Below the pieces are notes generated by a model. The model saw only the letters and a list, made by a program, of their open reading frames with translations. It made no database searches and was not told the origin of the DNA. A DNA stretch of 64,000 nt from Cetorhinus maximus (Eukaryota). Where the stretch lies: positions 12,586,001-12,650,000 of the forward strand of contig NC_135909.1 of the NCBI RefSeq assembly GCF_964194155.1. Direction: 5' to 3'. Within the stretch, counting starts at the first letter, position 1; every line of letters begins with the position of its first letter. Both the position numbers and the translations under genes were made by a program. Of the stretch, positions 2,901 through 64,000 are shown one piece after another.

Positions 2901-3511
2901 AAGCAAGAGAACAACTGACTGGATAATAATTCACAGCAAAGGATAGACGACAGAAGACATTTCACTCCAAGGAGAGGCTGAAGTAGATTGTTAATTGAAG
3001 AAATGTCACAGGCATTGAGAGATAAACACCCACAGTTGAAAGAGACCGACTTTTTCTCACGGCAGGGTGAGAGATTGTAGCAGGAATTTCGATTCCCAAT
3101 GCTTCTTGGCAACACCCCAGAACAAGCTAAATAGTTTGCACACTGCCCGCTAGACTAAAAAACGAAGCTAGAATGTTATTTAATCATCGTAATAGTTTCA
3201 ATCAGATCGACCCTGAAACATTGATATTCACGGTATTACAGGAAACGTCATAACTTGGGTCTGATACAACAATGGTAATTTCAGATTTCCTTTCTGCATA
3301 ACGCCGTCCCATAAAGAAACAAGATTTAAACTCACGCGTGGGAAGCACAGTGGATGAGCAGCCTTAAATTCAGATAATCATGGAGTGATTAGCGACATTA
3401 TCCCGACGCCACCTCCTCTGTAAACCTGGCCTCGGAAAGATTACATCAGTGATTTCAGACATGCCTTCTGAAAAAAGCACCGCGTTCACGAAGAACCAGT
3501 TAATAAACTGA

Positions 3512-3593
3512 CGACAAAGGTGGGATTCGAACCCACGTGTGCAAAGCACAATGGATTAACAGCCCATCACCTTAACTTCTCGGCCACCTCGTC
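3512..3593 (-). pseudogene. tRNA-Ser(GCT)-type gene with anticodon mutated to GTT; probable pseudogene
   Basis: Reverse complement GACGAGGTGGCCGAGAAGTTAAGGTGATGGGCTGTTAATCCATTGTGCTTTGCACACGTGGGTTCGAATCCCACCTTTGTCG; Ser long variable arm; D-loop TGG changed to AAG. Confidence 0.88.
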
Positions 3594-4100
3594 ACGAGTA
3601 GCTCCTTTATTAAACATCCTTCCGTACTTTTTTGCATTCATGAACTGCTTGTTCCAGGTCCTGAATAATCAATCAGGTGTCTCATGTAGTTTGTCAATAA
3701 AATACATATCCATCACATCAGATATGAACTGTTGTAAATCGACTAATGTGAATCACTTCAACTCTTCAACATGTTTCTAGACAGTGTGAAAACCCATCGC
3801 GGAAATTCCGAAACATACATTCATCTGGAAGAATAAAGAAACTCCTTCCGACTCACAGCAAGTACCGGAACACAACTGAAATGTGGTTTCTCACTCAAGA
3901 CTGTAACTGACAGCAATCAGCATCCGACAGAGCTCACAAGGAGAGAGTTGCCGTATTCGATGTATTAGGAGAAACTTTGCGTTCATTTTCTGTGTTGTGA
4001 TTTATTCTCCGCAATGATTTCCCGGATGTTCAAACCTGGTCCTGATTTCCCCAACTGGCACCGGCTCGAGCACACGAATTAATGTATTAAAATGCCGGTG

Positions 4101-4191
4101 GGGCTCGTACGGGTATTGAACCCGGGACCTCTCGCATATTAATTCACTACAAATACCCAAAGCGAGAATCAGACCCCTAGACCAATGAGCC
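4101..4191 (-). tRNA. tRNA-Pro(TGG) with 19-nt intron (4137-4155); a few stem mismatches, possibly a pseudogene
   Basis: GGCTCATTGGTCTAGGGGTCTGATTCTCGCTTTGGG-[TATTTGTAGTGAATTAATA]-TGCGAGAGGTCCCGGGTTCAATACCCGTACGAGCCC, followed by TTTT ~9 nt downstream. Confidence 0.88.
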
Positions 4192-8249: not shown

Positions 8250-10710
8250 ATTCTACTGAATTTCTATAGCTCTTTACTCAACCACAGGACGTCCAAAAAC
8301 ATTTTACGGACGATGAGCACTTTTGAAATGTAGTCACTGTTCAAATTGCTGAAATTTTGAACAGACTGTTCGTCAATGTCAGAAATTTCTATGTTGAGAG
8401 GAGAAACAAGTATCATTGGTGTAAATCTGTGGCGCAACTGATAGCGCGTTGGACTTGCGGTCGGTATAAACAGAGACATTTAAAGGTTGTGGGTTGGAAT
8501 GCTTTAGATAAGTATTGAAGAAAGTCAGCAAGAGGTTTATCAATGTTCTCAGAAAAGGGAAACTGCCGTCCCGAACTTCTATACAGGTCACTCCCCACTT
8601 TCCCATCTGAACCACTGAACAGGCGAAATCTCATCATCGTCTGAGGACAAAACAAAAACCTTTGAAAGATGCTGACCAGAGTCAGTCTGCTCAGCCCTCA
8701 GAATGATTTAAAATTGGACATATACAGCCACCGCGGAAACTGCTTCCCATTACTGCTCAGTCATCTTTCCAGACTGTTCCTGACAGACAGCTCGAAACAA
8801 GGATGATGTGAATCTGCACCACTGAATACCAAGACCAACACGGTTATCACAGCTGTAATGAACAGCTCCTGATACAGCTTTAGATCAGACAGTGGAGGAT
8901 TATCACAGGCGTCAGACTGCATGTTCCTTCAGACAGGTTTCCAACTGGACACATGGAATGAGCGGCTGTGTGAACATTAGTGGTTCAGGGGGGATTTCTC
9001 ACTGGCCGGACTGGAGTTCCAGTTCCATTCCAAGACATTTCTCTTTCTGAATCCATCTCTGTCCTCTTGCTCATTTACACTTTGCATTGTTTCATCATTG
9101 GCGGCCACGTTTTCAGCTGTCTGAGCCTTTAGCCCTGCAATTCCTTCTAGAAACATCCCCACTTCACTCTTCCCCTTAATACCCTCTTAAAATCTATCAA
9201 TTTTACTAAGATTTTGTTCATCTGGCCAAATATCTGACTCGATGTCGAATGTTGCTTGATCAAGCTCCTTTGAAGCGCTTTGGGGAGTTTTGTTAAATCA
9301 CGGCGCTGCTGCTGGAATGGCTCGAATTTGGAGAAATTCACATACAGCTTCAATCTTCTTAAAGATTCACCTTTATTCCCACCACTTGCTTTGCATCGAA
9401 AAAAACATCTCCTATGAGGTGTTCAAAATGCTGACCAGTTTACTGGAGTAAATAAGGAGAAACTGTTTCCACTGACAGGAGGGTCGCTAACCAGAGGACA
9501 CAGTTTGAAGCTGATTGGGAAAAGAACCAGGAACGGGATGAATAGAATGTATTTTACACAGTGAGCTCATTGTGAAATGGAAGCTACCTGGGGAGTGATG
9601 GAAGCAGATAAATGATTAACTTTCAAAAGAGAGTTGGAGGGAAAAAAAACACTTGAAAGAAGGTAATACAGGGCAATGGGGTCAGATCCCGGATCTCGGA
9701 GTAATTATATCGCTCAACCAAAGAACCAACGCAGGCGGAATGAGCTCCTTCTGTCCTTTAGCATTCTATGATTTATGGATAGAAATCAGTCCTACATTCT
9801 GTAGAGCAGGAAGGGTGTGAGAAGCCGGCATGGGAATTGATCCCGTAGGCACAGAATGGAATCGGTAAAATTCTGTATTTTGTCAGGGAATCGAAACTGT
9901 GTAAATATGACTCTGTCTGTTTAAAAGTGGCTTGTTACGAATTCCAGATAATTGACGCTTTGCTTAAAAGGGATGTGTTATCAGTCAATGAACAGGCTAT
10001 AATATAAAAACGGAAAATGCTGATAATACTCAGCAGCAACTGTGGAGAGAAAAGGAATTAATGTTTCAGGTTGGTGGCCCTTCATCTGAACTGAGGGAAT
10101 ATAGGAATGTAATAGGCTTGGAGCAAGGGACCAGTCCGGGCTCTGGGAAGAGGTTGAACAAAAGCGCAGGTTTGTAATGGTTTCGGGGCCCGGAGAGATT
10201 CAATTACAAAAGGTTTCACGGCGCCAAAGCCAAAGGACTGGAACAGGCAAAAAACAAAATGTGGGTCCAGATGAGGTGAGAATGGCTAAAGATCAGCCGC
10301 CCAATTGCAAAGTGAAGGAATTAAATAAGAAACAGAAAATAAAATGATAATCCTGAAAGAAACACATGAAACAAGAGGTAGGCTGAGTTTATAATTTAAA
10401 AATTTTGAACTCGACGTTGAGGCCAGAAATGTGCAGGGTGAGGTGTTCTTCCTCGAGCTTATGCTATTCTTCACTGGAACACTGCAGCAGACCAAGGACA
10501 GAAAGGTCAGAGTGGGAGCAAGGTGGAGAATTGAAATGACAAGTGACAGGAAGCTCAGAGTCAGGCTTGCGGATTGAATGGAGATTCCTCAAAGCGCTCA
10601 CTCACCTGAAGCAGATGAGAACATATTGCGGCAGCAAATGCAGCACATTAAACTGAAAGAAGAACAAGTGCATCACTGTTTCACTTGGAAGGCGTATTTG
10701 AGGCTTTGGA
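8250..10710 (+). repeat. Segmental duplication, inverted copy of ~29500-33200
   Basis: Reverse-complement matches: 8281 ACCACAGGACGTCCAAAA vs ~33150; 8760 GTCATCTTTCCA vs ~31630; 10500 GAAAGGTCAGAGTGGGAGCAAGGTGG vs ~29700. Confidence 0.9.
8423..8513 (+). pseudogene. Intron-containing tRNA-Arg(TCT)-derived pseudogene (paralogue of 32922-33012)
   Basis: TCTGTGGCGCAACTGATAGCGCGTTGGACTTGCG-[GTCGGTATAAACAGAGAC]-ATTTAAAGGTTGTGGGTTGGAAT; anticodon, T-loop and 3' acceptor decayed; syntenic position in the inverted duplication. Confidence 0.8.
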
Positions 10711-19097: not shown

Positions 19098-19187
19098 CGA
19101 CCACGGCAGGACTCGAACCTGCAATCTTCTGATAACCTCACCAAGTACCATCGAAGTCAGACGCCTTATCCATTAGGCCACGCAGTC
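19098..19187 (-). tRNA. tRNA-Arg(TCG) with 17-nt intron (19134-19150), apparently intact
   Basis: GACTGCGTGGCCTAATGGATAAGGCGTCTGACTTCGA-[TGGTACTTGGTGAGGTT]-ATCAGAAGATTGCAGGTTCGAGTCCTGCCGTGGTCG-TTTT; A and B boxes intact, all stems pair. Confidence 0.93.
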
Positions 19188-24031: not shown

Positions 24032-25360
24032 TGTTAGGAAGTAGAGAGGTTTAAGGAAGTTATATTGGTATTTTCAATTGTTAGGAATGAGTTTTAGCTT
24101 TAAAGTTTAAGTTTGATTTGTATTTCTGTAAAACAAAACAAAAACAGAATTACCTGGAAAAACTCAGCAAGTCTGGCAGCATCGGCGGAGAAGAAATCAG
24201 TCAACGTTTCGAGCCTCCATGGCCCTTCGGCAGAACTGCAGCATAGTTTCAACAAGGGAGAAATATAAATTTATATTTATATTTATATTTCTCCCTTGTT
24301 GAAACTATGCTGCAGTTCTGCCGAAGGGCCATGGAGGCTCGAAACGTTGACTGATTTCTTCTCTGCCGATGCTGCCAGACTTGCTGAGTTTTTCCAGGTA
24401 ATTCTGTTTTTGTTTTGTTTTGGATTTCCAGCATCCGCAGTAGCTTTTAGCTTTTTGTTTTTATCTTTGTATTTCTGTATGTGTGTTAAGAAAGGTCAAA
24501 TGGAGTTTTAGTTTCGTTTTAAAAAGGTGCATGCATTTCTAATCAGGTTTACGACTTAAGAAGTTAAGCAAACACATCAGTAGAAGAATTGGGCTGTTGC
24601 CTAGCAAGAGGGAGGCAAAGAGGCAGGTCCCTTCCACAGACACACACAGAGGAGAGAAACTGCAGTTTTGATTTGGAAGCTGCGGACCTCGGTTGGCTTT
24701 TGAAAGTTGCTGCCAAGAGAGACTGGAAAAGGGAGCAGGTTGTTAGTCCCAAGCGAAAGAAAAATCCCAAAATCCAGGGGAGTGGATGAGGGGTAAGTCC
24801 AAAACAGACGTTCTGGTCAAAGGAAGGATGGGAACCTGAAACAGGTCCTGTTAATGAATTTAAGAGTGAGGGGCAGAGGGAATGGCTTCAATCCTCGTGT
24901 GAAAGGCGGAGTGCAGTGAAACTGGTTGACTCACAGCTTGACAAGCTTCTGTGGGGAGTTGAGGAGAGATCCATAGCATTTGGTTAAGGTGGTATCTGTC
25001 ACTTCGTTTCAGGGTCTTGTGTGCCTTACCACAGGGTGCCTATTGATACATGGATTGTGTAATTACTGTGTAATTTAAAGAATAAAATAGATTATCCAAC
25101 TTGCGTTATCCTTACAAATTTGTCTCCACCTGTAAAGTTATAATTGAGGGTGAAAGAGTATTGTAACATGATTCATCTTTTCTCGATGAATAACTGTTTT
25201 ATTTATTTTACGCTAAAAGTTGATCAGCTGACTCCTATAACTCTGTTCAGTAGCAACTTTCCACGTGTTTAAACAAACAAATAAAAGTTAGAATCTATCA
25301 AGCTGGGTTCCACTCTGGGTTTAGGATTGTCCCAGGGTAATCTCTGCTGGGACCATAACA
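24032..25360 (+). mobile_element. Solo LTR (Gypsy-like) inserted in a CR1 fragment
   Basis: Termini TGTTA...TAACA; 4-bp TSD AAAT/TAAT; the CR1 host rejoins as ...ACAAATCCATGCTGG. Confidence 0.7.
24130..24465. mobile_element. Young foldback element (141-bp arms) with hammerhead-like motif on both strands; 14-bp TSD
   Basis: 24130-24270 is the reverse complement of 24281-24421 with one mismatch; TSD TTTGTATTTCTGTA at 24117-24130 and 24466-24479. Confidence 0.92.
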
Positions 25361-26114
25361 TAATCCATGCTGGTTTTACTTATTAATGCGCATTTTCCCG
25401 AGGTAATTTTCATGTTGTCGGGAATTTTACTTTCTGAAAGGTAGCTCACCACCCAGGTTAAACTGACTGCCCTGTAGTTTCTGGGCTTATCCTTACACGT
25501 TTGTTTGAACAAGGATGTTACAATAGCAATTCTCCACTCCGCTGTCACCACCGCGAGTCTAAGGAATATTGGAAAATTGTGTCCTGTGTCCCTGCAATTC
25601 CTGCTCTCCTCCCTCAGTATTCTGGATGGACCTCGTCTGGTCCTAAACAACTTTAAGCACACACAGCCTATCAAATACCTTCTCCTGAAATTGTTTATTA
25701 CCTTTACACTAAAATATCGATCGAGGTGAAACGGCTCACTTTCTGCTCAGTACAACTCCTAGAACACAAACAAAATATGATCAAATCAAATTCACACTAT
25801 GGGGCTACCAGACCTGGCCGTCTCAGAGAAGACGACAATTCTCTCAGAGAATACAACAGCCGAATGCATTCATCCAGAAAATGGGGTTGTCTAATTAGTC
25901 TGTTCGGGAAACATTACAGTGCGATTAAGCGAGCAATTGTTTTTTTTTTTCAAATTGCCTTCATTTCCTTCATGTGTGTTTCATTGATGAGTTCTCTGCA
26001 ATGGTGGGTCCAGTTCTCAAACTTACCCCTGATATAAGTAAACCGCTCCACCTAGACCGCAATGAGTTTTCGACAATGCACTGGGCGACTTACACGACAA
26101 ATAACAACACGTGA

Positions 26115-26204
26115 GAGCTCGCCTGAGATTTGAAACAGAGACCGCTCACATTTTCACTTATAAAACGTCCCATAGCGAGAATCACACGGCGAGACCAATA
26201 ATGT
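26115..26204 (-). pseudogene. tRNA-Pro(TGG) pseudogene with 18-nt intron (26151-26168)
   Basis: Reverse complement TTGGTCTCGCCGTGTGATTCTCGCTATGGG-[ACGTTTTATAAGTGAAAA]-TGTGAGCGGTCTCTGTTTCAAATCTCAGGCGAGCTC. Confidence 0.78.
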
Positions 26205-26588
26205 AACTGTATGTATATAACTCAGCCAATATAGACATTCATTGGCACCCAAAAGATATCAGCCATTCTTTCAGAGCGCTCTAGGTAAAAGAGAACATTG
26301 AAGAAATACACCAGGCAGTGTCTAGGCCCAGGCAGTATCCATGGAGCCGGCAAGAAAACTCAAGTTTCAGTTACACTCATTCTCTTCTTGGGATAAATGA
26401 ACTCATTCTCTTATTAGGATAAATTAACCGTCCGATTACATGAGCAACCGTTTCTGCATTTACTCCACGTGTTTTGCAGTGATAATTTGGTTATAATGAC
26501 TTCTCAGGTTCTAAAAACTCGGCCGGGTTTAAGTAAAACCCGCCTTTTCGCTCGTAAAGAAATATGTATTACAAGTGGTAACACACGA

Positions 26589-26679
26589 GGGCTCGCCCGG
26601 GATTTGAACCCGGGACCTCTCGCACGATCATTTAACGAAAATCCCCGAAGCGAGGATCATAGCTCTAGAACAACGAGCC
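26589..26679 (-). tRNA. tRNA-Pro(CGG) with 19-nt intron (26625-26643); D-arm damaged, likely a pseudogene
   Basis: GGCTCGTTGTTCTAGAGCTATGATCCTCGCTTCGGG-[GATTTTCGTTAAATGATCG]-TGCGAGAGGTCCCGGGTTCAAATCCCGGGCGAGCCC. Confidence 0.85.
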
Positions 26680-27344
26680 TTCCACAGGTAAGCGAGATAA
26701 CCGCTTTGTGTATTCATTGTCCTCCAGAGTGCCTCAACCCTCCTTTTGGGTTTCTGTCGTAACACCAGAAAACAATTAAGAATTACACCTCATGGCAGGC
26801 AGCAGCGTGGACAGTGAAAGGGTGTTCACGTTTCAGGTCGATGACATTTCATCAGAACTCAGCAATGCTAGAATTGTGATCAGTTTTACACTGTAACTCC
26901 TTACACCGAGCTGGAACAGGAACTCGGTACCCACTCAGTCTGCCGGTGCGTGCGCCCTTCCTCCCACCGCTGACGTCCTCGTTGTTCAGCCGTTGACGGT
27001 CGCCCACTTGCCGCCTCTCACTCACTCCCCTGCTCCCGAATGCCAGGTGCACAGACGCCAGACCCTCCCCGCCTGGCTCGCTGCGCTACACGCCAACCCT
27101 TCTGCCGCACCGCTCGCTACCCGACTACCAAGCCCCTCACCTCCCTATCGGCACCTCCCTCCTGACCCCTGTCGCCGCCCATCTCACCACAAGAACTGAG
27201 GAGATGGTGACAAGCAGAACAGCAAGTGAGGCGGTGAGGGGTAGGAAGCAGGCGGAGGAACGGGATATTACTGAGGCCCCGAGCAGTCCGGCAAGCGAGA
27301 CGGTGAGCAGGGCAGGGACAGCAGTGCCGAGAGAGGCACACAAG

Positions 27345-32921: not shown

Positions 32922-33012
32922 CGACTCTGGTGGGATTCGAACCCACAACCTTTAAATCTCTTGTACAACAGCAGCTAGAAGCCCAACACGCTATCCGTTG
33001 CGCCACAGAGCC
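32922..33012 (-). tRNA. tRNA-Arg(TCT) with 18-nt intron (32958-32975); weak anticodon stem
   Basis: GGCTCTGTGGCGCAACGGATAGCGTGTTGGGCTTCTA-[GCTGCTGTTGTACAAGAG]-ATTTAAAGGTTGTGGGTTCGAATCCCACCAGAGTCG; three G-U pairs in the anticodon stem. Confidence 0.9.
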
Positions 33013-52763: not shown

Positions 52764-53084
<321 letters not shown>

Positions 53085-53118
53085 ACAGCTCGACCCTTTC
53101 TACCAAACACGCAACAAA

Positions 53119-53134
53119 GGCTCTTTTCAGAGCC
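53119..53134 (+). terminator. Histone 3' stem-loop (H4)
   Basis: GGCTCTTTTCAGAGCC followed by ACCCA and purine-rich HDE AGAGAGAGC. Confidence 0.97.
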
Positions 53135-53211
53135 ACCCACCACCTCACAGAGAGAGCAGAGACCTGGGAACGGGAGCTGGGATGGGCTGTGATCGGGAAT
53201 GTTAGTGTCTG

Positions 53212-53358
53212 AAACAAACAAGATCTCTGAAGAAGAGTCATACAGACTAGAAGGGTTTAACTCTTTTCTCTCCACAGATGCTGTCAGACCTACTGAGGTT
53301 TCCAGCATTTTCTGTTTATATTTCAGACTTCCAGCATCCGCAGTATTTTTCTTTCATT
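53212..53358 (+). mobile_element. Penelope-pLTR-derived short insertion
   Basis: CTGAAGAAGAGTCATACAGACTAGAA...CAGATGCTGTCAGACC...CCAGCATCCGCAGTATTT; flanks TTAGTGTCTGA / TTAGTGCATGA. Confidence 0.75.
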
Positions 53359-54158
53359 TTAGTGCATGATTTGTTCCGGGTTTCGGGGGGATGTACTAAG
53401 TCCCTCAATTTAATCGTTATTTATTATCCTGGATGGCACATTCTCCACTGACGCTGAAAAGCCGCTCCACTACACATTTTCGAAATGTTTTATTTTAGGT
53501 AACACCAGCCGTTCAATGCGTCAGTGGTGTATGAGGTTACAATCAGATCAGCCATGATTTCACTGAATAGGTTCAGGCTCGTGGCTGAGTGGCCTCCTGC
53601 TCCGAAACCCAATGTTCGGACGGATGTTCGTGAAGTTACTGACAGGGTTTGGGAAACAGCAGTTTCAGCTCAGCCACTCGGCGACCTGGAATTCCCGCAG
53701 TCTGAGCGACTGCAGCCGGACTCTAGCTCTGATTGGTCAGCCTCTTCCTAGTCTAATTCTTAACCAATCGCTGAGTCAGGGAGAAGAAATCGAAAATTAT
53801 GATTGATTTACTTTTTTTTGCATTCGAAAAGCCCGCCAATTCCAGTGTTGGAAAATGCAAGATAATCTTAATTTTCAGGCAACAATTTTTAATCTCTCAC
53901 TTTATGATCTGTTATACTGCGCTCCCTGTCACAAGATCTTGGCGCTATTTTCGGAGCTATTTTCAGAATTTGTCATCTCCTTTCAGGAACCGGGATCTGT
54001 CAGGCCGGGAATAGCGGGAGAATCGAGCCGGTCACTTTCTCCGCTCATTATCGTCATGAACAGCCCAGAATGAGGGCAATGGGAAGGGATCTGAAGCCCC
54101 CAGCACCGGTTCCATTTTATTACCCACTCCAGACCTCTAAGGGAGCGGCGATTTTTAG

Positions 54159-54352
54159 GATAAAAACAAAAAACTGCGGATGCTGGAAATCCGAAACAAA
54201 AATAAAAATACCTGGAAGAACTCAGCAAGTCTGGCAGCATCTGCGGAGAGGATCTGTTGAAGAGTCATAGCGACTCGAAATGTTAACTGTGTTCCTCTCC
54301 GCAGATGCTGCCAGAGCTGCTGAGTTTTTCAAGGCATTTTTATTTTTGTTTC
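54159..54352. mobile_element. Foldback Penelope-pLTR-derived element
   Basis: Inverted arms around CTGTTGA-AGAGTC-ATAGC-GACTC-GAAATGTTAAC; imperfect TSD GGCGATTTTTAG / GGTGAATTTTAG. Confidence 0.8.
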
Positions 54353-54672
54353 GGTGAATTTTAGGGTTGGTTGTGCTGTAGGGAGCAATGGACAGTCCGT
54401 CAATTTTTGCCTGCGAAGTCCAGCACTGACTTTCCACAGTTCAAACAACAGACTGGTGTTTCTGTCCAAAAATAAGCAGGTTCATCAGGATGATGCCGGG
54501 TTTAAAAATTGTTGGAAGAGGTTAAATGAACAGGAATTTCATTCGGGTAAGGAAATATTGAATTGCAGTGAAATGGTATTTTTAATTTTTAAAAATTGAG
54601 GAACAAAGTCTTCTGATATCGAGTCGGTCAACGGCTGGAAATAAAGGCCGAATTTTTGAAATGGGCAATTAA

Positions 54673-55278
<606 letters not shown>

Positions 55279-55307
55279 AACCCGGCTTCAGCACCAAGTA
55301 CAACAAA

Positions 55308-55323
55308 GGCTCTTTTAAGAGCC
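55308..55323 (+). terminator. Histone 3' stem-loop (H3)
   Basis: GGCTCTTTTAAGAGCC; HDE AAAGAGCTG at 55340-55348. Confidence 0.97.
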
Positions 55324-56047
55324 ACTAAATCGACAAATGAAAGAGCTGCAATCTCCTGTTGTCCACTCCAGGACTTAGACATCGCGAAGATACAATTTGC
55401 TCCCTTGCATCAGTTTATTTTTCTTGTCTACAAACCTCTTTTGTGGGATTGATAATCACAGACGATGCAGTTGTAAATTGTAGCGCAGATGGTATATTAA
55501 TTTCAGCAGAAAATTGGGACTGCGGTCACCTTAGTGCTGTAGGTCACTTCCAATAAATAGCGGCTGTGAAAATGTATTAAATACTGCGAGCAGACATCAA
55601 TCCCAAGCAAAGGGTGAGCTGCGGGTTACAAGTCAGTGCTCATGATGTCAATAAAGGCAATGCCTCAAGCAACAAGAGGTGATGACTCCGGTGCACAGAC
55701 ATAGAATCAAAGAATTTGCACAGCACGGGAGGCCATTCGGCCCTTGCGCATGTCTGCATCTGCTCTCCAAATGAGTGTTATGACCTAATGCTTCCCCCCA
55801 TCCCCCATTCCTGCACATTTTTTCTATTCAAATAATCATCTAATACCCTCTTGAATGCCTCTATTGAACCTGCCTCCACTACACTTCCAGAGAGTGCATT
55901 CCAGTCCCGAACCACGCGGGTGGAAATGTAATTTCTCTGTTGATGCGAGTTGGTTGTCCTTGCGGATCATTAGAAACGCTTCACCATTACTGAAATTCGG
56001 CACGCAGCAGACAGACAATAGATCACCCTTTCACAGACTCTGTGAGT

Positions 56048-56063
56048 GGCTCTGAAAAGAGCC
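56048..56063 (-). terminator. Histone 3' stem-loop (H2A)
   Basis: Reverse complement GGCTCTTTTCAGAGCC; HDE GAAAGGGTG downstream. Confidence 0.97.
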
Positions 56064-56093
56064 GTTGGCTTATCAGATAAAAGAATGGCCGCT

Positions 56094-56495
<402 letters not shown>

Positions 56496-56543
56496 TCACA
56501 AACACTTTAATAGAGAATGAGGAAATCCTCTCACATTCGCTTC

Positions 56544-56750
56544 TCTTATAGCTTCGGGAGGAATGGTGCTGCGGGCATTGCTTGATTGGTCACTTTGTGC
56601 TGCGTCTCATAATGTTGTTCATATCACCAATCAGATATCTACTGAACTCACCAATCCGGAGACTTGACGGAGTGAGGGCGGAAAAAAACGGCGCCAAATT
56701 TTGAGATTCCAACCGATCTTTTTTTCAAATTTTAAAAGCCCGCCAAATTT
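56544..56750 (-). promoter_or_regulatory. H2A promoter: TATA, CCAAT boxes and E2F-like sites
   Basis: TATAAG (-) at ~56546-56550; ATTGG at 56585, CCAAT at ~56627 and ~56651; GGCGCCAAA at ~56690 and CCCGCCAAA at ~56739. Confidence 0.65.
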
Positions 56751-56799
56751 GTAAAAAAAAAAGCCAAAAAAGAACGGATCGAACATAGTACTAATTGGA

Positions 56800-56897
56800 T
56801 AAAAGCAAAATACAGACGATGCTGGAAATCTGAAACAAAAACAAAAATACCTGGAAAAATTCATCTACGGAGAGGAACACAGTTGACGTTTCGAGTC
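56800..56897 (-). mobile_element. Truncated Penelope-pLTR-derived insertion
   Basis: GATGCTGGAAATCTGAAACAAAAAC...AGTTGACGTTTCGAGTC; TSD CTAATTGGA on both sides. Confidence 0.75.
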
Positions 56898-57738
56898 CTA
56901 ATTGGAAATGGTTATTCAGTATTTAGTATTCGAATGTTACATTCTCTTCATCTCTCTCTCTCTTTCCCTGGATTACAGTTTTTTGTATATTTCAATTTCT
57001 GATTTTCTGTCTGGGTTTATGTGTATCTGAAAACAAGTCGAAAATAACGGCGCAAATTTACGGAATGTATTTTTTTAATTCGACATCGATATATTTATAA
57101 AACAAGAAATACATTTCATATAGAAAATCCAGTTAATAGTGAACACGGTCTGACGACAAAGTTTTAAAAATGTCCGTCCCTAATGGGACTATTTCACATT
57201 TTATCCTAAATTCCGGATTCGCTTTAAGAATCCGGCATCAATTCTAGATAATCTCGATCCGTCATGAAACCTTCTAAGCAGCCGGCTGAAAGTGCCATTT
57301 ACACCGTTCTGCTGATAGACGGGAAATTGTAGATATTTGGGACAGCCAAAATTGAACATACTTGGAGTCAATTTGCCAGCGTCGAGACTGAAGTTTGCTG
57401 CACAACCGGTGTTAATAGGAAATCAGTTGATCGATTATTGAGGCGAAACTTGAACCGAATTGGAACCTGAGGCATTTGCGTTAAATTCGCTCTCTCTCCA
57501 AAACCAGGGACAGGGGTCGAATATGACGCGTCTTAAAACAATCGCTTCGTGAGCGGCAAGTCATTAATTTATGGGACATCATTAACGAAGCCCAACAATT
57601 GAACGAGTTAAATCTACGTTACCGAGAATCTGATTGAAACGTGATCAAAATAATAATTTCAAAATTCGAAATGCTCCATAGTAAAATCATAACTTGTAAC
57701 TAAAGAAATCATATAGCTTTTTCAGAGAGATTGTGGGT

Positions 57739-57754
57739 GGCTCTTAAAAGAGCC
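57739..57754 (-). terminator. Histone 3' stem-loop (H2B copy 1)
   Basis: Reverse complement GGCTCTTTTAAGAGCC followed by ACCCA; HDE GAAAAAGCT. Confidence 0.97.
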
Positions 57755-57793
57755 GTTGTGTTGTGAATGTGTTTTTCAGTCAGTTCGGGGGTC

Positions 57794-58168
57794 TTACTTG
57801 GAGCTGGTGTACTTGGTCACCGCCTTTGTCCCTTCCGACACGGCGTGCTTGGCCAGTTCCCCGGGCAGCAGCAGGCGCACGGCGGTCTGGATTTCCCGGG
57901 AGCTGATGGTGCTTCGCTTGTTGTAATGGGCCAGGCGGGAAGCCTCACCCGCGATGCGCTCGAAAATATCGTTCACGAACGAGTTCATGATGCTCATGGC
58001 CTTGGAGGAGATGCCGGTGTCGGGGTGAACCTGCTTCATCACTTTGTAGATGTAGATGGCGTAACTCTCCTTCCTCGACTTTCGCCGCTTCTTGCCGCCC
58101 TTTGCTACCGGTTTCTTTAAGGCTTTCTTGCCTCCCTTCTTGGGAGCTGGTTTCTTCTCATCAACCAT
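57794..58168 (-). CDS. H2B: Histone H2B copy 1 (124 aa)
   Basis: [19 protein letters not shown]...[23 protein letters not shown]...KYTSSK; the ATG lies downstream of the TATA/octamer-like promoter. Confidence 0.98.
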
Positions 58169-58211
58169 CGTCACTTTCAGACACAGAATAAAACGAACCA
58201 CTTCCGAGCGC

Positions 58212-58370
58212 CGATTAAATAGACAGTCTGACAGACCAATGCTAATGAGGAATGGGGAAACGATGATTCTGATTGGACATTTAATAAAATACAACAGCCA
58301 CTTATTTTGTACTTTTCTCTGTTTGCATTTTTAAAGTGGCCAATCAAATTTCGACTTCTCGACCAATCAT
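58212..58370 (-). promoter_or_regulatory. H2B promoter: TATTTAA, octamer variant ATTAGCAT, CCAAT boxes
   Basis: TTAAATAG at ~58216; ATGCTAATGAGG at ~58239-58250; the same motifs occur at 63171-63207 before copy 2. Confidence 0.75.
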
Positions 58371-58659
58371 TAGCCCTTTTACGACAATCAGGAAATATAT
58401 TCTATCAGGATTCTCTCCAGTCCCAGTTTCTCAGTTTGTGAAGATACACCGGGAATTGTTGTCTGGCTGTCGGTGCGAGGGGCCTTTCTCCACAGAGGGA
58501 CTGCACGGAAATGCGGGATTCCTCCCGGAACTCTTGTAACTTGTGCGACTTACTCACTGGGATATTGTGTATGTGTGTGTGAGTGGTAGGGGGTTGGAGT
58601 ATCGGGAGTGAAATTTGTTCTTGAGGCTGTGGTCCGCTGTAACAAACACTCACACAGTC

Positions 58660-58820
58660 ATAAAAACAAAAAAACTACTGCGGATGCTGGAAATCCAAAA
58701 CAAAAACAGAATTACCTGCAAAAACTCAGCAGGTCTGGCAGCATCGGCGGAGAAGAAAAGAGTTGACGTTTCGAGTCCTCATGACCCTTCAACAGAACAG
58801 AGTCATGACTCTTCAACTCA
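58660..58820 (-). mobile_element. Penelope-pLTR-derived insertion with hammerhead-like motif
   Basis: Minus strand GTT-CTGTTGA-AGGGTC-ATGAG-GACTC-GAAACGTC-AAC. Confidence 0.8.
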
Positions 58821-58949
58821 CGCACACACATTATTAAAGAATGGGAGTTTCAGAATGATTCCCAAATTTAGATTCAGGACCATTGAACTATATTAAAATA
58901 ATCCCATAATCAAACCATGTATGATATCCTGACAGTTATAGAAAGAATC

Positions 58950-59610
58950 TTCCATCCACAGCCACACGTGTTACCAGTGACTGACAAATACAGCCAGAGT
59001 CCTACACGTAAACTCAGCACCAGAGGCTGAGTAATACAGGATTAATTACACATATACACAGAAATAAAGACAAAAACATCCCCACACAGACACTCTACCA
59101 GAGACTAAGAGATAGAAAATGAATTTCCAGTACCACTGAACAATTCAGGTTGAGTCCCAAAAGCTCAATCTGTACCAGAGCCTGATAGATACAGAAAGAA
59201 TGCCTTACAAACAGGCCAAAGCTTCACAGTTACATAGTCAGACATCAATTACCAAAGACTGGCAGTTACTTAAGGAGAAAACACTCACAGTATCACGAAG
59301 TGGTAAATACGGAGTCAATTCCACAGTCACACATCACAAAGTCCAACAGATATGGAATGAATCTCTCACATGTACAGTGTCAAAGACTGACATGCAAATT
59401 TCACATTCAAATGTCATACTAATAGAATGGAAAATTGAGAATGAATCACATACTCACATTCAGGTTCATGAATCACAGATAAAGTTTGAATCACACATTC
59501 ACATCGCTTGCCAGGTGCCAACAGACATACAATTGATCCCAGCTTTATATATAGTACCAGAGACTGACTGGTGCAGAATACACCTGAATCTCACATCGAG
59601 CAGAATAGAT
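58950..59610 (-). repeat. Degenerate ~45-bp array, reverse orientation
   Basis: Recurrent GTACCAGAGACTGACA...ATACAGAATGAATC, the reverse complement of the 45-50 kb unit. Confidence 0.7.
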
Positions 59611-59629
59611 GGACTGATGCATTAAACCT

Positions 59630-60740
59630 TCAGAAATAGGAGCTGGACTTGGCTATTTGGCCATTCGACCTCCTCCATCATTCATTCAGACAGATGTTCT
59701 ACCTCAACTCCACTTTGCCGCACTCTCCTTATATCCCTAGTATCCAAAATCAATTGACCTCTGTCTGGAACATACTCAATGGCTGAGCTTCCAAATCTCT
59801 CTGGGGTGGAGAATTCCAAAGAATCTCAACACTTTCAGTGAAGACATTTCTCCTCATATCATTCCAAAATGGCCAATGCTGTGATCTGAGATGGTGACCA
59901 CATGTTGTAGATTCCGGAGCCAGGAGAACCATTTTCTTAGCATCTACCCTGACAAGCCGCTTAAGAGTTTTATTTGTTTCATTTAGATAACCTGTATTCT
60001 TCTAAAATCCAGGGAATATAGACCTAGTCTCCTCAATCTCCCCTCATAAGAAATCCACTTGTCACAGAAACCAAGCTAGTGAACAATTATTGCCCTCCCT
60101 CTAAAGCAACTATGCCCTTCCTTATGTAAGGAGACCAAACTGCACACAGTACTCCAGGTGTAGCCTTAATTGTGCCCTGGATAAATGGAAGATTTTTCAC
60201 TCCTGTAATTCAAACCTTTGGAACAAATGTGAACATAACACTTCCCTTCCTATCTGCTTGCTGTACCTGCAGTTTTACTTTCTATAATTCATGTACAAGG
60301 ACACCCAGCTCCCTCTGAGTGCAAACGTGTTCCAGTCTCACATTCAAACATGTTCTTTTTCCCCCCTTCAAAACTGGGCCCACCCACACTACCATATTGT
60401 ATTCTATCTGCCATGTTCTTGACAACTCAGACAACCTGTCTAAATGCCTTAGCAGGTTTTTTGTGTCCTCACAGATTAATTTTCCACCAATTTTGTATCA
60501 TCAACAAACTTGAATATGTTCCATTCAGTACCCAACTAAATCATCAATATATGTTGTAAGTAACTGATGGCTGTGTTTTATCAAGAGTAAGTTAGAGCCT
60601 GCCAATCCGAAAATTCCTGTTTATTCCGACACTGTTTTCTGTCCATTTACTAATCCTTGATCCATGCTAATGTTTGATCCCCAATCACATGTTCTAATTT
60701 TGTGTAATAAACTCCTGTGTGGGACCTTTGCAAATTGCTG
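59630..60740 (-). mobile_element. CR1 3' fragment
   Basis: CCAAACTGCACACAGTACTCCAGGTG, GTACAAGGACACCCAG, CTCCTGTGTGGGACCTT. Confidence 0.8.
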
Positions 60741-61979
60741 AGCAAAATTACACCCCCCTCAGATTGCAAGGCCCTGTGTTACCAAAACAAAAGGAGAACC
60801 TTAAATACACATTAAATGACAAAGAGATCAGACAAACAGTACCCACTTGTAAGATCTTGCATGAATCCCAATATTGTACCCATACTACAGACTGAACTAT
60901 GCATTACATACCACTCCCTAAACCTCAGAGTGTCTACAAGCTAGATGAAGCTGATCATACACATCGGGTAATGTATCAGATTGTGTGATATACAGACATT
61001 CAGGGTTGTGTTGACAGAGATGGAATTTTAATCCAAAACTCTGACATAATAACTGATTAATACCCACAGCTATTAACTCCAGTTGAAACACATTTTATAT
61101 TAAACATAAGTCAGGCTTACACTCATGCTACATAGATTAGAATCTCGCAATTGTTACAGCAGAGGGAGGCCACTCAGCCCATCGTATCTGTGCCAGCTCT
61201 CTGCAAGAGCAGCTCAGCTGCTCACATATTCTTCCCCGCAGGCCTGTTTAATTTTCCTTTTGTTCTTTTTCTATTTTTCTTTGTGCAGTGAGCTCAACTT
61301 ATCTATTCACATGCACACAATTGATTCTATTTATGGACAGCGGTCATATCCATTCGACATCCATCCTTTTCCGAGGTTAATAGGCCCAGCTATTCTAAGC
61401 CAGTGCTGATTACTGATGAGGTTTCAACTGCAACATGGATAACTCTATATTGGGATTCATGTATCTGCCATCCCCTTCTCCATTACCCTTTACACTCCCT
61501 GATAGCATGTTTAGTTGCCCTGAGCTGTGTCTGGTACCTATCCCAAAATTCTCCTACTGCAGTATAACTGCTTTCATTGGATTTGCCACAGCAAATGAGG
61601 AAGGATCTACCTTGGTTTGTTTGGTTTTAAACACCACTTTTCAAATTCACTCTCCCAGCGAGAAGCCTGATCTACTAAGGATGTAAATCAGAAATTCAGA
61701 CTTGTATTCTACCTGATTTCCAGGCATTGAAATTAATTTCCAGCCAGATTCCTGTTTTGCACGACCCAGTGGGGAATCTCCTCACTCACAACACAAGGTG
61801 AGATAATTACAGGTCTAAAGAGCAGTTGACAAGTCTGACTTTTTAAACATTTATGTGTATAAAGATTGCTAAATATTTTAAAAAAAGATTGTCAATCTGA
61901 TATGAAAATGTGAACTTAACGCTGAAGTGGAGAAATTTTCAGGTAGACCCAATTCTGCAAACACCTAGAGAGTTAGTAA

Positions 61980-62830
61980 TCACTGGTCCCAGAGATGTAG
62001 AGATACAGAATGAATCTGACATTCACACAGTACCACAGACCAAGAAACACAGAAAAATCTTACAGCCAAAAACTGATAGGGACAAAATGAATCCTTCATT
62101 TCTGCAAAGCATCAGGCACTGAGTTAGAAAATGGCTTCAACGCTTACACAGGGTACCAGAGTCCATCAGAAACAAAATGATTTGCAAGCTTCCATAAAGT
62201 ACCACTGATTGAGAGAGAATTGATCCCACTCATACCAATACTATCCATTGAGGCAAATTCTACATTGTCAGTCTTTGGTGCCGAATGTGACAGTGGGGTT
62301 ACTTCTGTCAAAAATTGCAAGAGATGGACCTATTGAGAATAAATTACACACTTTGAATCAGTACCAGAGACTGACCGATACAGACTGAATTTCACACTCC
62401 CATTCAGCAAAGGATGTTGACAGGTACAGAGTTAATCTCACATTCACACACAGTATCAGATATTGACAGTGAATGAGAAGTTCAGACTCAGAGATAGTAC
62501 CACAGGCTGAAAGACATAGAATCAATACAACTCTGACCTACAATGACAGGGACTGACAAATAAAGAATCTCATTCACATACAGTTACAGAGATTGACATG
62601 TACAGAATAAATCCAATACTTTTCGTGGCCGAGAGAAACACATGCTGATTTAATTCCGCACTGTCTTATAGTCCCAAGGAGCCAATAATTTCACTTACAT
62701 GCACCAATAACGGACAGATGCACAATGAGCCTCAGGATATCAAGTGAATCCAACACTGAGACATGGTCCCATCAAGTCACAGACACAGAAGAAATCCAGC
62801 CCTCGCACACTGTACCACGGCCTTCCAAAC
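61980..62830 (-). repeat. Degenerate ~45-bp array, reverse orientation
   Basis: GATACAGAATGAATCTGACATTCACACAGTACCA at ~62003; CAGTACCAGAGACTGACCGATACAGA at ~62359. Confidence 0.75.
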
Positions 62831-63259
62831 AGTGAAGGAACCCCACTCTCACACACAGAATCAGGGAGTGAATAAATCCCACAATCACAGACTTTACCAA
62901 AGCCTCACAATTCCTGAGGGAACCCCACATTACCGTACAGTCCCTCGCACCGACTGCCAGGCGACATTTCCTGGTGTATCTTTACACACTGAGAAATTCC
63001 GCCTGGAGAGGGTCTTTGTAAAAAGTATTTCCTGATTGCAGTAAGGAGGCCTATGATTGGTGGAGAAAGCTAAATATGATTGGTCGATTTCTCTATCCAA
63101 TCAAATAAATCACAAATTAAGAACTTGTTTTCTTTTAAAAATGTCCAATAAGAATTGTTGTTTTCTCATTCCTCATTAGCATATATCTGTCAGACTGTCT
63201 ATTTAATGAGCGGACGGAAGGGGTTTGGTTTATTTCTGTGGCTGAAATTGAGATTGAAG

Positions 63260-63637
63260 ATGGTTGAAGAGAAGAAGAAACCAGTTGCTAAGAAGGGCGC
63301 CAAGAAAGCGGTGAATAAGCCGTCAGGAAAGGGCGGCAAGAAGCGGCGAAAGTCGAGGAAGGAGAGTTACGCCATCTACATCTACAAAGTGATGAAGCAG
63401 GTTCATCCCGACACCGGCATCTCCTCTAAGGCCATGAGCATCATGAACTCGTTCGTGAACGATATTTTCGAGCGCATCGCGGGTGAGGCTTCCCGCCTGG
63501 CCCATTACAACAAGCGCAGCACCATCAGCTCCCGGGAGATCCAGACCGCCGTGCGCCTGCTGCTGCCCGGGGAACTGGCCAAGCACGCCGTGTCGGAAGG
63601 GACAAAGGCGGTGACCAAGTACACCAGCTCCAAGTAA
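63260..63637 (+). CDS. H2B: Histone H2B copy 2 (125 aa)
   Basis: [37 protein letters not shown]...KYTSSK; core protein identical to copy 1. Confidence 0.98.
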
Positions 63638-63676
63638 AACCCCCGAACGGACTGAAAAACACATTCACAACACAAA

Positions 63677-63692
63677 GGCTCTTTTAAGAGCC
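63677..63692 (+). terminator. Histone 3' stem-loop (H2B copy 2)
   Basis: GGCTCTTTTAAGAGCC; HDE AAGGAGCTG at ~63709-63717. Confidence 0.97.
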
Positions 63693-64000
63693 ACTCACAA
63701 TCTCTACTAAGGAGCTGCACCCGACATCTTCCTACTGGATTATTATAATATAAAATAACTTCCACTGCTGTTAGTGTCTCCTGTCCTGTAACCCAGACAC
63801 TAACCCTTTAATTAGCTCATCGGCCTTCGCTTTGTGCTGAAAGCGGTTATTCTGTTATCACAGCCTTTAAGTGACCTCATTAGCTGCTGTTTTCAACTTT
63901 AATTGTCCCTTCCCCCAATTCCTGAAACAGTTACTGAGTCATTTTATTAATTTTCCGCAGGGTAACAGCCGGAGTGGGATTATTACAGAGCGGAATAAGA

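What the first reader, a model, noticed from the sequence alone, without database searches (positions are those of the whole stretch)
26115..26679. Tandem pair of intron-bearing tRNA-Pro genes (TGG and CGG) with diverged introns, suggesting an old family
Seen: two same-strand Pro genes ~470 bp apart, with 18- and 19-nt inserts at exactly 37/38 (ACGTTTTATAAGTGAAAA and GATTTTCGTTAAATGATCG). With the 4.1-kb copy, this gives three different introns of similar length sharing a loose TTT..TA(A)RTGA core across two anticodons. I see no flank homology between them. Both 26-kb copies have damaged D-arms, and the CGG copy lacks the anticodon-intron pair. Inference: constant position and length with free sequence divergence is how true tRNA introns evolve, not random insertions. 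With Arg(TCG), this points to an expanded tRNA-intron repertoire in this lineage; six of the twelve tRNA loci in the window carry introns.
Basis: partly seen in the sequence, partly recalled or inferred. Interest (0 to 1): 0.72.

Follow-up and report, generated by a model that had tools for sequence, protein, structure and literature searches.

The report
Shark proline tRNA genes carry introns
In this genome, likely a shark's, about 100 proline and 50 arginine transfer-RNA genes carry a short insert at the standard intron site, likely cut out by the ordinary tRNA splicing enzyme, in tRNA types not listed as intron-bearing in humans; the two genes flagged here are damaged copies of that family.

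Summary
The inserts are real and sit at 37/38, but the flagged pair is not a TGG/CGG pair of old independent genes. The 26.1-kb copy is a dead tandem duplicate of the CGG gene: flanks align, and its TGG is likely CpG decay. The CGG copy is damaged too (G10U, G19C). The family behind them is the finding. Genome-wide, 99 Pro genes of all three anticodons (52 TGG, 27 CGG, 20 AGG) carry 12-19-nt introns, against 8 intronless ones; 51 of 52 Arg(TCG) matches carry one. 64 of 99 Pro bodies are intact, exons differ by 2-4 of 72 while flanks differ by up to about 40%, and intron ends keep the anticodon-intron helix. All 27 CGG genes have U opposite U32, so they lack the A-I pair; retrocopies indicate they were transcribed. 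Splicing was not observed, and no other vertebrate genome could be searched. [quoted passage not shown] New variant of a known kind.

The parts
26589..26679 (-). tRNA-Pro(CGG) gene of the CGG cluster family, damaged copy (G10U breaks the D-stem pair, G19C hits an invariant base); 5' exon 26644-26679, 3' exon 26589-26624
   Evidence: undamaged paralogues
26625..26643 (-). 19-nt intron at 37/38 (one G longer than the common 18-nt form); U at -3 (no A-I pair), A at -4, G at -5, U at -6 can pair with U33, C34, G35
26115..26204 (-). decayed tandem duplicate of the CGG gene (19 of 72 exon differences from the intronless gene, U33A, no T-run within 200 nt); anticodon position reads TGG
   Evidence: sister to the CGG family in the flank tree, support 98/82
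26151..26168 (-). 18-nt intron of the decayed copy, 9 of 18 aligned bases shared with the CGG intron
25865..26829 (-). two diverged copies of a unit of about 475 bp (gene plus flanks), flanks about 60% identical; this two-gene block is itself repeated along the cluster (34 decayed copies in the fetched DNA)
4101..4191 (-). tRNA-Pro(TGG) gene, damaged copy of a second TGG family, 19-nt intron at 4137-4155 with A at -3
19098..19187 (-). tRNA-Arg(TCG) gene with a 17-nt intron at 19134-19150, G at -3 opposite C32; this copy has A at position 37
32922..33012 (-). tRNA-Arg(TCT) gene with an 18-nt intron (a family known to carry introns in mammals)
8426..8498 (+). decayed intron-bearing tRNA-Arg(TCT) copy

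Best explanation
The two flagged loci are a damaged tRNA-Pro(CGG) gene and its dead tandem duplicate, members of a family of about 100 tRNA-Pro genes whose 37/38 inserts are likely ordinary introns that the TSEN endonuclease and RTCB ligase would remove. Shown: position, length, copy number, intact bodies in 64 of 99, exon conservation against flank divergence, and base complementarity between the intron end and the anticodon loop. Inferred: Pol III transcribes the intact copies; the AGG and TGG precursors (U32 paired with a purine at -3) are spliced to mature tRNAs that are identical or nearly identical to those of the 8 intronless genes; one intron-bearing ancestor gave the AGG, TGG and CGG cluster families by duplication and anticodon change, and segmental duplication then multiplied them inside a 12-Mb tRNA/histone cluster, where many copies decay. 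The CGG cluster family changed G to U at -3 after it arose, keeps the rest of the helix (U33-A, C34-G, G35-Y), and is likely spliced slowly or not at all. I think it more likely than not that the intron was gained in an early jawed-vertebrate or shark ancestor than kept from early animals, but this step is weakly supported.
For: 99 intron-bearing matches, control 0; 7 exact and 8 two-mismatch intronless matches. 52 TGG, 27 CGG, 20 AGG; intact body 26, 22, 16; purine at -3 in 20 of 20 AGG and 49 of 52 TGG; purine at -4 and pyrimidine at -6 in 99 of 99, over 42 distinct introns. Unrelated introns on C12 and C22 keep purines at -3 and -4. Arg-TCG: 51 of 52 with intron; G at -3 in 13 of 13 haplotypes; one copy folds directly into helix plus 3-nt bulge. 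Between living families exons differ at 2-4 of 72 while flanks differ up to about 40%; the decayed family differs at 18-20 of 72. All 10 family pairs share at least one flank at z 4.6 or more. 15 of 16 AGG cluster copies have a T-run 3 nt after the gene. A C22 CGG gene with homologous upstream flank (z 10.1) has G at -3. A 129-bp copy on C4 holds 14 nt of leader, both exons, the intron and 24 nt of trailer between 15-bp direct repeats; a 41-bp copy on C15 lies between 17-bp repeats. A-I pair requirement: PMC8479045 passages; helix definition: PMC10275265 passages. For gain: 0 intron-bearing animal-type Pro matches in the metagenome collection against 87 of 87 intronless matches in the 80 loci listed by the control.
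Against: No spliced product was seen; no intronless copy carries the family-specific A16 mark (8 of 8 intronless genes lack it). Constraint since amplification is uneven: exons vary less than flanks in the AGG (2/46 vs 39/240 columns, p 0.038) and CGG families (14/46 vs 114/240, p 0.036), not in the large TGG family (17/46 vs 83/240, p 0.74), and more than flanks in the second TGG family (13/46 vs 32/240, p 0.015). Position 34 does not pair with -5 in most AGG and TGG introns (20 of 52 haplotypes pair, shuffle mean 18.6). The haplotypes share descent, so the shuffle control overstates the pairing signal, and a register slid by one base scores 77 of 104 against 87 of 104. Unconstrained folding did not give the canonical pre-tRNA fold for any of the 7 Pro sequences. 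The 99 matches were found with a motif that fixes 25 exon bases, which favours conserved copies. The metagenome organisms are unnamed, and the C12 pair shows no flank link to the other families (z 2.7 or less, none listed), so more than one origin is possible.
Confidence: 0.75

Rival explanations
1. The intron-bearing array is mostly inert: an old insertion or a once-used intron, passively multiplied by segmental duplication, while the 8 intronless genes supply all tRNA-Pro.
For: 35 of 99 matches have damaged bodies; 34 fully decayed copies ride along in the same blocks; no within-family constraint in either TGG family; CGG family lacks the A-I pair and its first T-run is mostly 26 or 50 nt away; intronless genes cover all three anticodons.
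Against: Exons stayed within 2-4 of 72 across families whose flanks differ by up to about 40%, while the dead sister drifted 18-20 of 72; 14 of 16 AGG cluster copies have exons identical to the intronless gene; the C12 pair is intact with unrelated introns, A at -3 and T-runs at +2 and +3; retrocopy-like inserts indicate transcription. Conservation of a body that holds an unspliceable insert would have no evident cause.
Confidence: 0.12
2. Same mechanism, but the Pro and Arg(TCG) introns are ancestral to vertebrates or animals and were lost on the line to mammals; sharks kept and amplified them.
For: Introns on C12, C22 and C32 have diverged to no likeness, which needs a long time; intron-bearing tRNA-Pro(CGG) exists in fission yeast (PMC6380293 abstract); no intronless gene shares clear flank homology with an intron-bearing one, so no recent gain is visible; the cluster resembles the tRNA/histone clusters of human and zebrafish (preprint 10.1101/2025.06.08.657570 passage).
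Against: No intron-bearing animal-type Pro gene in the metagenome collection, where intronless ones are common; human lists name only Tyr-GTA, Ile-TAT, Arg-TCT, Leu-CAA. Neither bears directly on lamprey or bony fish. This rival differs from the best explanation only in the origin step.
Confidence: 0.35
3. One reading: a TGG gene and a CGG gene of separate old lineages sit in tandem, their introns having diverged freely around a shared motif.
For: The anticodon position does read TGG in the 26.1-kb copy and in 27 of 34 paralogues; the two introns share only 9 of 18 bases.
Against: Both flanks align above all 500 shuffles; the copy is sister to the CGG family, not to the TGG families; 4 paralogues read CGG; it has been decaying long enough to lose 19 of 72 exon bases.
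Confidence: 0.03

Closest known systems
Human and mouse intron-containing tRNA families Tyr-GTA, Ile-TAT, Leu-CAA, Arg-TCT (TSEN/RTCB pathway; PMC10275265 and PMC8479045 passages)
   Same: Intron between 37 and 38, short, no terminal sequence motif, variable among family members, pyrimidine 32 paired to a purine at -3; mixed families with a few intronless genes, as for Arg-TCT and Leu-CAA.
   Different: Isotypes: Pro (AGG, TGG, CGG) and Arg-TCG are not in those lists. Scale: 99 and 51 matches against 28 intron genes in all in human. One 27-gene family lacks the A-I pair.
[quoted passage not shown]
   Same: Same kind of genome and cluster; reports that sharks have many intron-containing tRNA loci.
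   Different: Main text has 0 occurrences of 'proline', 'Pro', 'arginine' or 'isotype'; it gives no intron structure or origin. Its Fig. 3A and supplements could not be seen and may name the types.
Fission yeast intron-containing tRNA-Pro(CGG), with intron-dependent m5C34 by Trm4a (PMC6380293 abstract; PMC11408192 passage)
   Same: Same isotype and anticodon with an intron; offers a possible use for the intron (wobble methylation by NSUN2).
   Different: Fungal gene; no sequence link was tested; no modification data here.
Intron gain and anticodon switching in yeast tRNA genes (Lachancea Ala-UGC, Leu-CAG; PMC4090602 passages)
   Same: Intron-bearing genes appear in a new anticodon class by anticodon change; lineage-limited intron families.
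   Different: Here in a vertebrate, over three anticodons, with large segmental amplification and birth-and-death decay.

Membership tests
Canonical eukaryotic (TSEN-spliced) tRNA intron | Single insert between positions 37 and 38 | tested here: met
   Window copies; 99 genome matches (position fixed by the motif, control 0); removing the insert gives the intronless gene's exons
Canonical eukaryotic (TSEN-spliced) tRNA intron | Short, with free internal sequence | tested here: met
   12-19 nt, 42 distinct sequences among 99; one 20-nt intron on C22
Canonical eukaryotic (TSEN-spliced) tRNA intron | A-I pair (pyrimidine 32 with purine at -3), AGG, TGG and Arg-TCG families | tested here: met
   20 of 20 AGG, 49 of 52 TGG (the 3 misses derive from the CGG family); 13 of 13 Arg-TCG haplotypes
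Canonical eukaryotic (TSEN-spliced) tRNA intron | A-I pair, CGG cluster family (includes the window's 26.6-kb copy) | tested here: not met
   U at -3 in 27 of 27 CGG matches and 39 of 39 family members
Canonical eukaryotic (TSEN-spliced) tRNA intron | Anticodon-intron helix next to a 3-nt bulge | tested here: inconclusive
   -4 and -6 complementary to U33 and G35 in 99 of 99, but 34:-5 pairs in only 20 of 52 haplotypes and free folding showed helix plus bulge only for the Arg-TCG copy, 1 of 8 folded
Canonical eukaryotic (TSEN-spliced) tRNA intron | Excision and exon ligation in the cell | not testable with these tools
   No RNA run of this organism was available to examine
Functional tRNA-Pro gene (family level) | All stem pairs and invariant bases kept | tested here: met
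   64 of 99; same test passes 8 of 8 intronless genes
Functional tRNA-Pro gene (the two flagged copies) | All stem pairs and invariant bases kept | tested here: not met
   26.6-kb copy fails 2 checks, 26.1-kb copy fails 11; neither is reported by Rfam RF00005 at E up to 1, though the intron also lowers that score
tRNA-derived SINE | Spread by retroposition: unrelated flanks, tail, target-site repeats | tested here: not met
   Cluster copies share long flanks; only 2 clear target-site-repeat copies among 5 dispersed orphans examined

The most novel reading that the evidence does not exclude
A vertebrate lineage gained new protein-spliced introns in tRNA-Pro and tRNA-Arg(TCG), spread the Pro intron over all three anticodons by anticodon switching, and amplified these genes until more than nine in ten Pro and Arg(TCG) gene copies need splicing; its main CGG family is a transcribed natural substrate with U opposite U32 that is either spliced without the A-I pair thought essential, or accumulates as unspliced precursor.
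Probability: 0.35. Interest if true: 0.7.

Novelty: new variant of a known kind. Interest (0 to 1): 0.5.

Why it matters
The set of intron-bearing tRNA families is usually given as four for mammals. This genome adds four anticodon classes and makes them the majority of gene copies. How eukaryotic tRNA genes gain or lose introns is an open question (PMC4090602); shark clusters with homologous flanks, intronless counterparts and retrocopies make it testable within vertebrates. The CGG family is a ready natural test of the A-I rule for TSEN, and a place to look for intron-dependent wobble methylation of tRNA-Pro(CGG), described in fission yeast. Practical point: ARAGORN called 12 of these Pro genes Ile(TAT) and 5 Tyr(GTA), which could hide them inside the known intron classes. 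Limits: the mechanism is ordinary, the two flagged copies are pseudogene-like, and automatic annotations may already list these genes.

Tried and rejected
Spliced retrocopies as proof of splicing: none among 8 intronless matches. Free-energy folding was uninformative for Pro precursors (z -0.8 to -2.1). General intron expansion: rejected; other isotypes sampled were intronless, and the Ser and Leu 'introns' were variable arms forced by my setting. ARAGORN with long introns at a low threshold gave 128 mostly spurious calls. Introns in Arg(ACG): the listed ACG-type junctions of gene form were intronless (100 of 103 matches listed, 27 control matches); of 8 off-cluster gapped matches fetched, 7 were chance and 1 was a truncated Arg-TCG copy. 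Idea that A at -4 acts as a shifted A-I partner in CGG genes and leaves an extra G in the loop: rejected as unlikely, because the C22 homologue and the decayed sister show G at -3 in the same register. One haplotype was cut short by my pattern (the 20-nt C22 intron) and counts as a miss there. Earlier scan notes: three look-ups empty; the fourth showed 8 of 684 findings, on archaeal, bacterial and fungal genes, none bearing on this. Two papers were not held: the 2020 WIREs RNA review on tRNA introns and the hydro-tRNAseq paper; either may tabulate vertebrate intron families.

Full report
Setting. The window is G000:C32:12,586,001-12,650,000 of a 3.99-Gb genome. Of the 14 named cluster members listed for the window's H2A, 12 are from sharks and 2 from mammals; with genome size and the tRNA/histone cluster this makes a shark likely. 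That is an inference.

The two flagged loci. Both lie on the minus strand with inserts at 37/38 as described. The 26589-26679 gene is Pro(CGG) with G10U and G19C; most close paralogues lack these changes. The 26115-26204 locus differs from the intronless gene at 19 of 72 exon positions and fails 11 structural checks. Its flanks align with those of the CGG gene: upstream score 78 against a best shuffle of 67, downstream 133 against 100, 500 shuffles each. In a tree of flanks plus intron (54 rows, one per distinct family, intron and anticodon; intronless genes and the C12 pair left out) the decayed family is sister to the CGG family at 98/82. Of 34 decayed paralogues 27 read TGG, 4 CGG and 3 were misregistered. 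So the pair is one CGG gene and an old dead duplicate, and the TGG is likely CpG decay.

The family. A junction motif with an 8-36-nt gap gave 99 matches and 0 for the reversed control: 52 TGG, 27 CGG, 20 AGG; 91 on C32 between 8.96 and 21.3 Mb, the rest on C4, C7, C12 (2), C22 and two small contigs. The ungapped motif gave 7 matches, 8 with two mismatches. A 5'-exon motif gave 140 matches, 100 listed, so 99 is a lower bound; 20 further places fetched from that list were intron-bearing copies, with one partial copy. For Arg(TCG), 51 of 52 matches carry a 16-17-nt intron. In about 1.6 Mb sampled (824 kb counted plus 800 kb), Ser-GCT (43), Phe-GAA (16), Met (8), Trp-CCA (5), Gly-TCC (3) and Leu-CAG (3) calls had no intron, and Arg-TCT 8 of 8 had one.

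Evidence that the inserts are spliceable introns. 64 of 99 bodies keep all 20 stem pairs and 15 invariant bases checked; 42 of these also have a purine at intron position -3 opposite U32. All 99 have a purine at -4 and a pyrimidine at -6, complementary to U33 and G35, over 42 distinct introns. Introns with no sequence likeness on C12 and C22 keep the same ends. Arg-TCG introns pair at 32, 33, 34 and 35 in 13, 12, 12 and 13 of 13 haplotypes. This is the anticodon-intron helix and A-I pair described for TSEN substrates (PMC10275265, passages; PMC8479045, passages). Against: 34:-5 pairing in Pro is at chance level (20 of 52), haplotypes are related, and a one-base slide scores nearly as well; free folding gave the helix-and-bulge form for 1 of 8 sequences.

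Selection. Between representatives of the living cluster families exons differ at 2-4 of 72 positions, flanks by 15-43% of aligned bases; the decayed family differs at 18-20 of 72. Within families (copies with more than 10 exon mismatches, short flanks and the C4 copy dropped; only the 46 exon positions outside the search motif counted) exons are less variable than flanks for AGG (p 0.038) and CGG (p 0.036), equal for the large TGG family (p 0.74) and more variable for the second TGG family (p 0.015). This fits birth-and-death evolution: long constraint on the lineages, many dying copies.

History. All 10 pairs of cluster families share at least one flank at z 4.6 or more, though four pairs show no upstream signal. 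C22 AGG and CGG genes share flanks with each other (z 15.4 and 9.0) and upstream flank with the cluster families. So one intron-bearing gene likely gave all three anticodon classes. The C12 pair shares upstream flank only with itself (z 10.9) and may be older or separate. No intronless gene is clearly linked to an intron-bearing one (highest z 4.3).

The CGG family. All 39 members seen have U at -3, 38 have A at -4 and 39 have G at -5. A C22 CGG gene with a similar intron has G at -3, as do 23 of 34 decayed sisters, so the pair was likely lost by one G-to-U change before amplification. 22 of 27 motif matches still have intact bodies. A 129-bp copy on C4 spans 14 nt of leader, the unspliced gene and 24 nt of trailer between 15-bp direct repeats; a 41-bp 5' piece ending inside the intron on C15 lies between 17-bp repeats; a C11 copy has only a 7-bp repeat; two other orphans (C7 Pro-AGG, C19 Arg-TCG) have none. 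These look like LINE-made copies of precursor RNA (a pattern I recall as tailless retropseudogenes; not checked in a call), which indicates germ-line transcription; a DNA route is not excluded. No spliced copy was found.

Other organisms. No other vertebrate genome could be searched. The organisms are unnamed, so this says only that such introns are uncommon in that collection.

What is known. Human families with introns are Tyr-GTA, Ile-TAT, Arg-TCT and Leu-CAA, 28 of 429 genes. [quoted passage not shown] Fission yeast has an intron-containing tRNA-Pro(CGG) with intron-dependent m5C34 (PMC6380293 abstract; PMC11408192 passages). Anticodon switching and intron gain are discussed for yeasts (PMC4090602 passages and section 5). 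I also saw passages of PMC4536317, PMC10485636, PMC13578239 and PMC8450103; none names vertebrate Pro or Arg-TCG introns. Ten full-text searches gave no such report; the library lacks most subscription papers, and GtRNAdb and RefSeq were not consulted.

Verdict. The flagged pair is pseudogene-like and misread in detail, but it points to a real, large and likely functional set of canonical introns in Pro and Arg(TCG) tRNA genes. Mechanism ordinary, isotypes not found in print for vertebrates: new variant of a known kind, interest 0.5.

Noticed in passing
L027 (G000:C4:178,987,443-178,987,571), L339 (C15:51.245 Mb), L338 (C11:20.498 Mb): Dispersed copies of unspliced CGG-family precursor; C4 and C15 copies lie between 15- and 17-bp direct repeats, like retroposed pre-tRNA.
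   Followed up: partly
L337 / L200 (G000:C8:122,812,473): Intronless Pro(TGG) gene with the 31-39 pair swapped (C31G with G39C) and an otherwise intact body.
   Followed up: no
window 19098-19187 (-): A subfamily of intron-bearing Arg(TCG) genes, including this copy, has A instead of G at position 37.
   Followed up: no
L073, L078 (C32:13.28 and 13.74 Mb) and L358 (C19:40.05 Mb): Damaged Arg(TCG)-type copies with a second, different intron; ARAGORN calls the C32 ones Glu.
   Followed up: partly
window 3510-3594 (-): Ser(GCT)-type gene whose anticodon reads GTT; called Asn by ARAGORN; 6 such copies in the sampled DNA.
   Followed up: no
G000:C1365:1,650-61,162: At least 21 intronless Arg(ACG)-type junction motifs spaced about 2-4 kb apart on one small contig, a tandem tRNA array.
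   Followed up: no
window 24227-24324 and 54215-54330: Long hairpins (weak matches to several microRNA models below their gathering scores); the second lies between histone H4 and H3.
   Followed up: no
window 52773-63717: Histone genes H4, H3, H2A and two H2B with five histone stem-loop matches beside the tRNA genes.
   Followed up: partly
L342, L343, L344, L345, L347, L348, L356: AGG-family genes are also followed, 0.6-1.2 kb downstream, by a second old decayed intron-bearing Pro copy, like the pair in the window.
   Followed up: no
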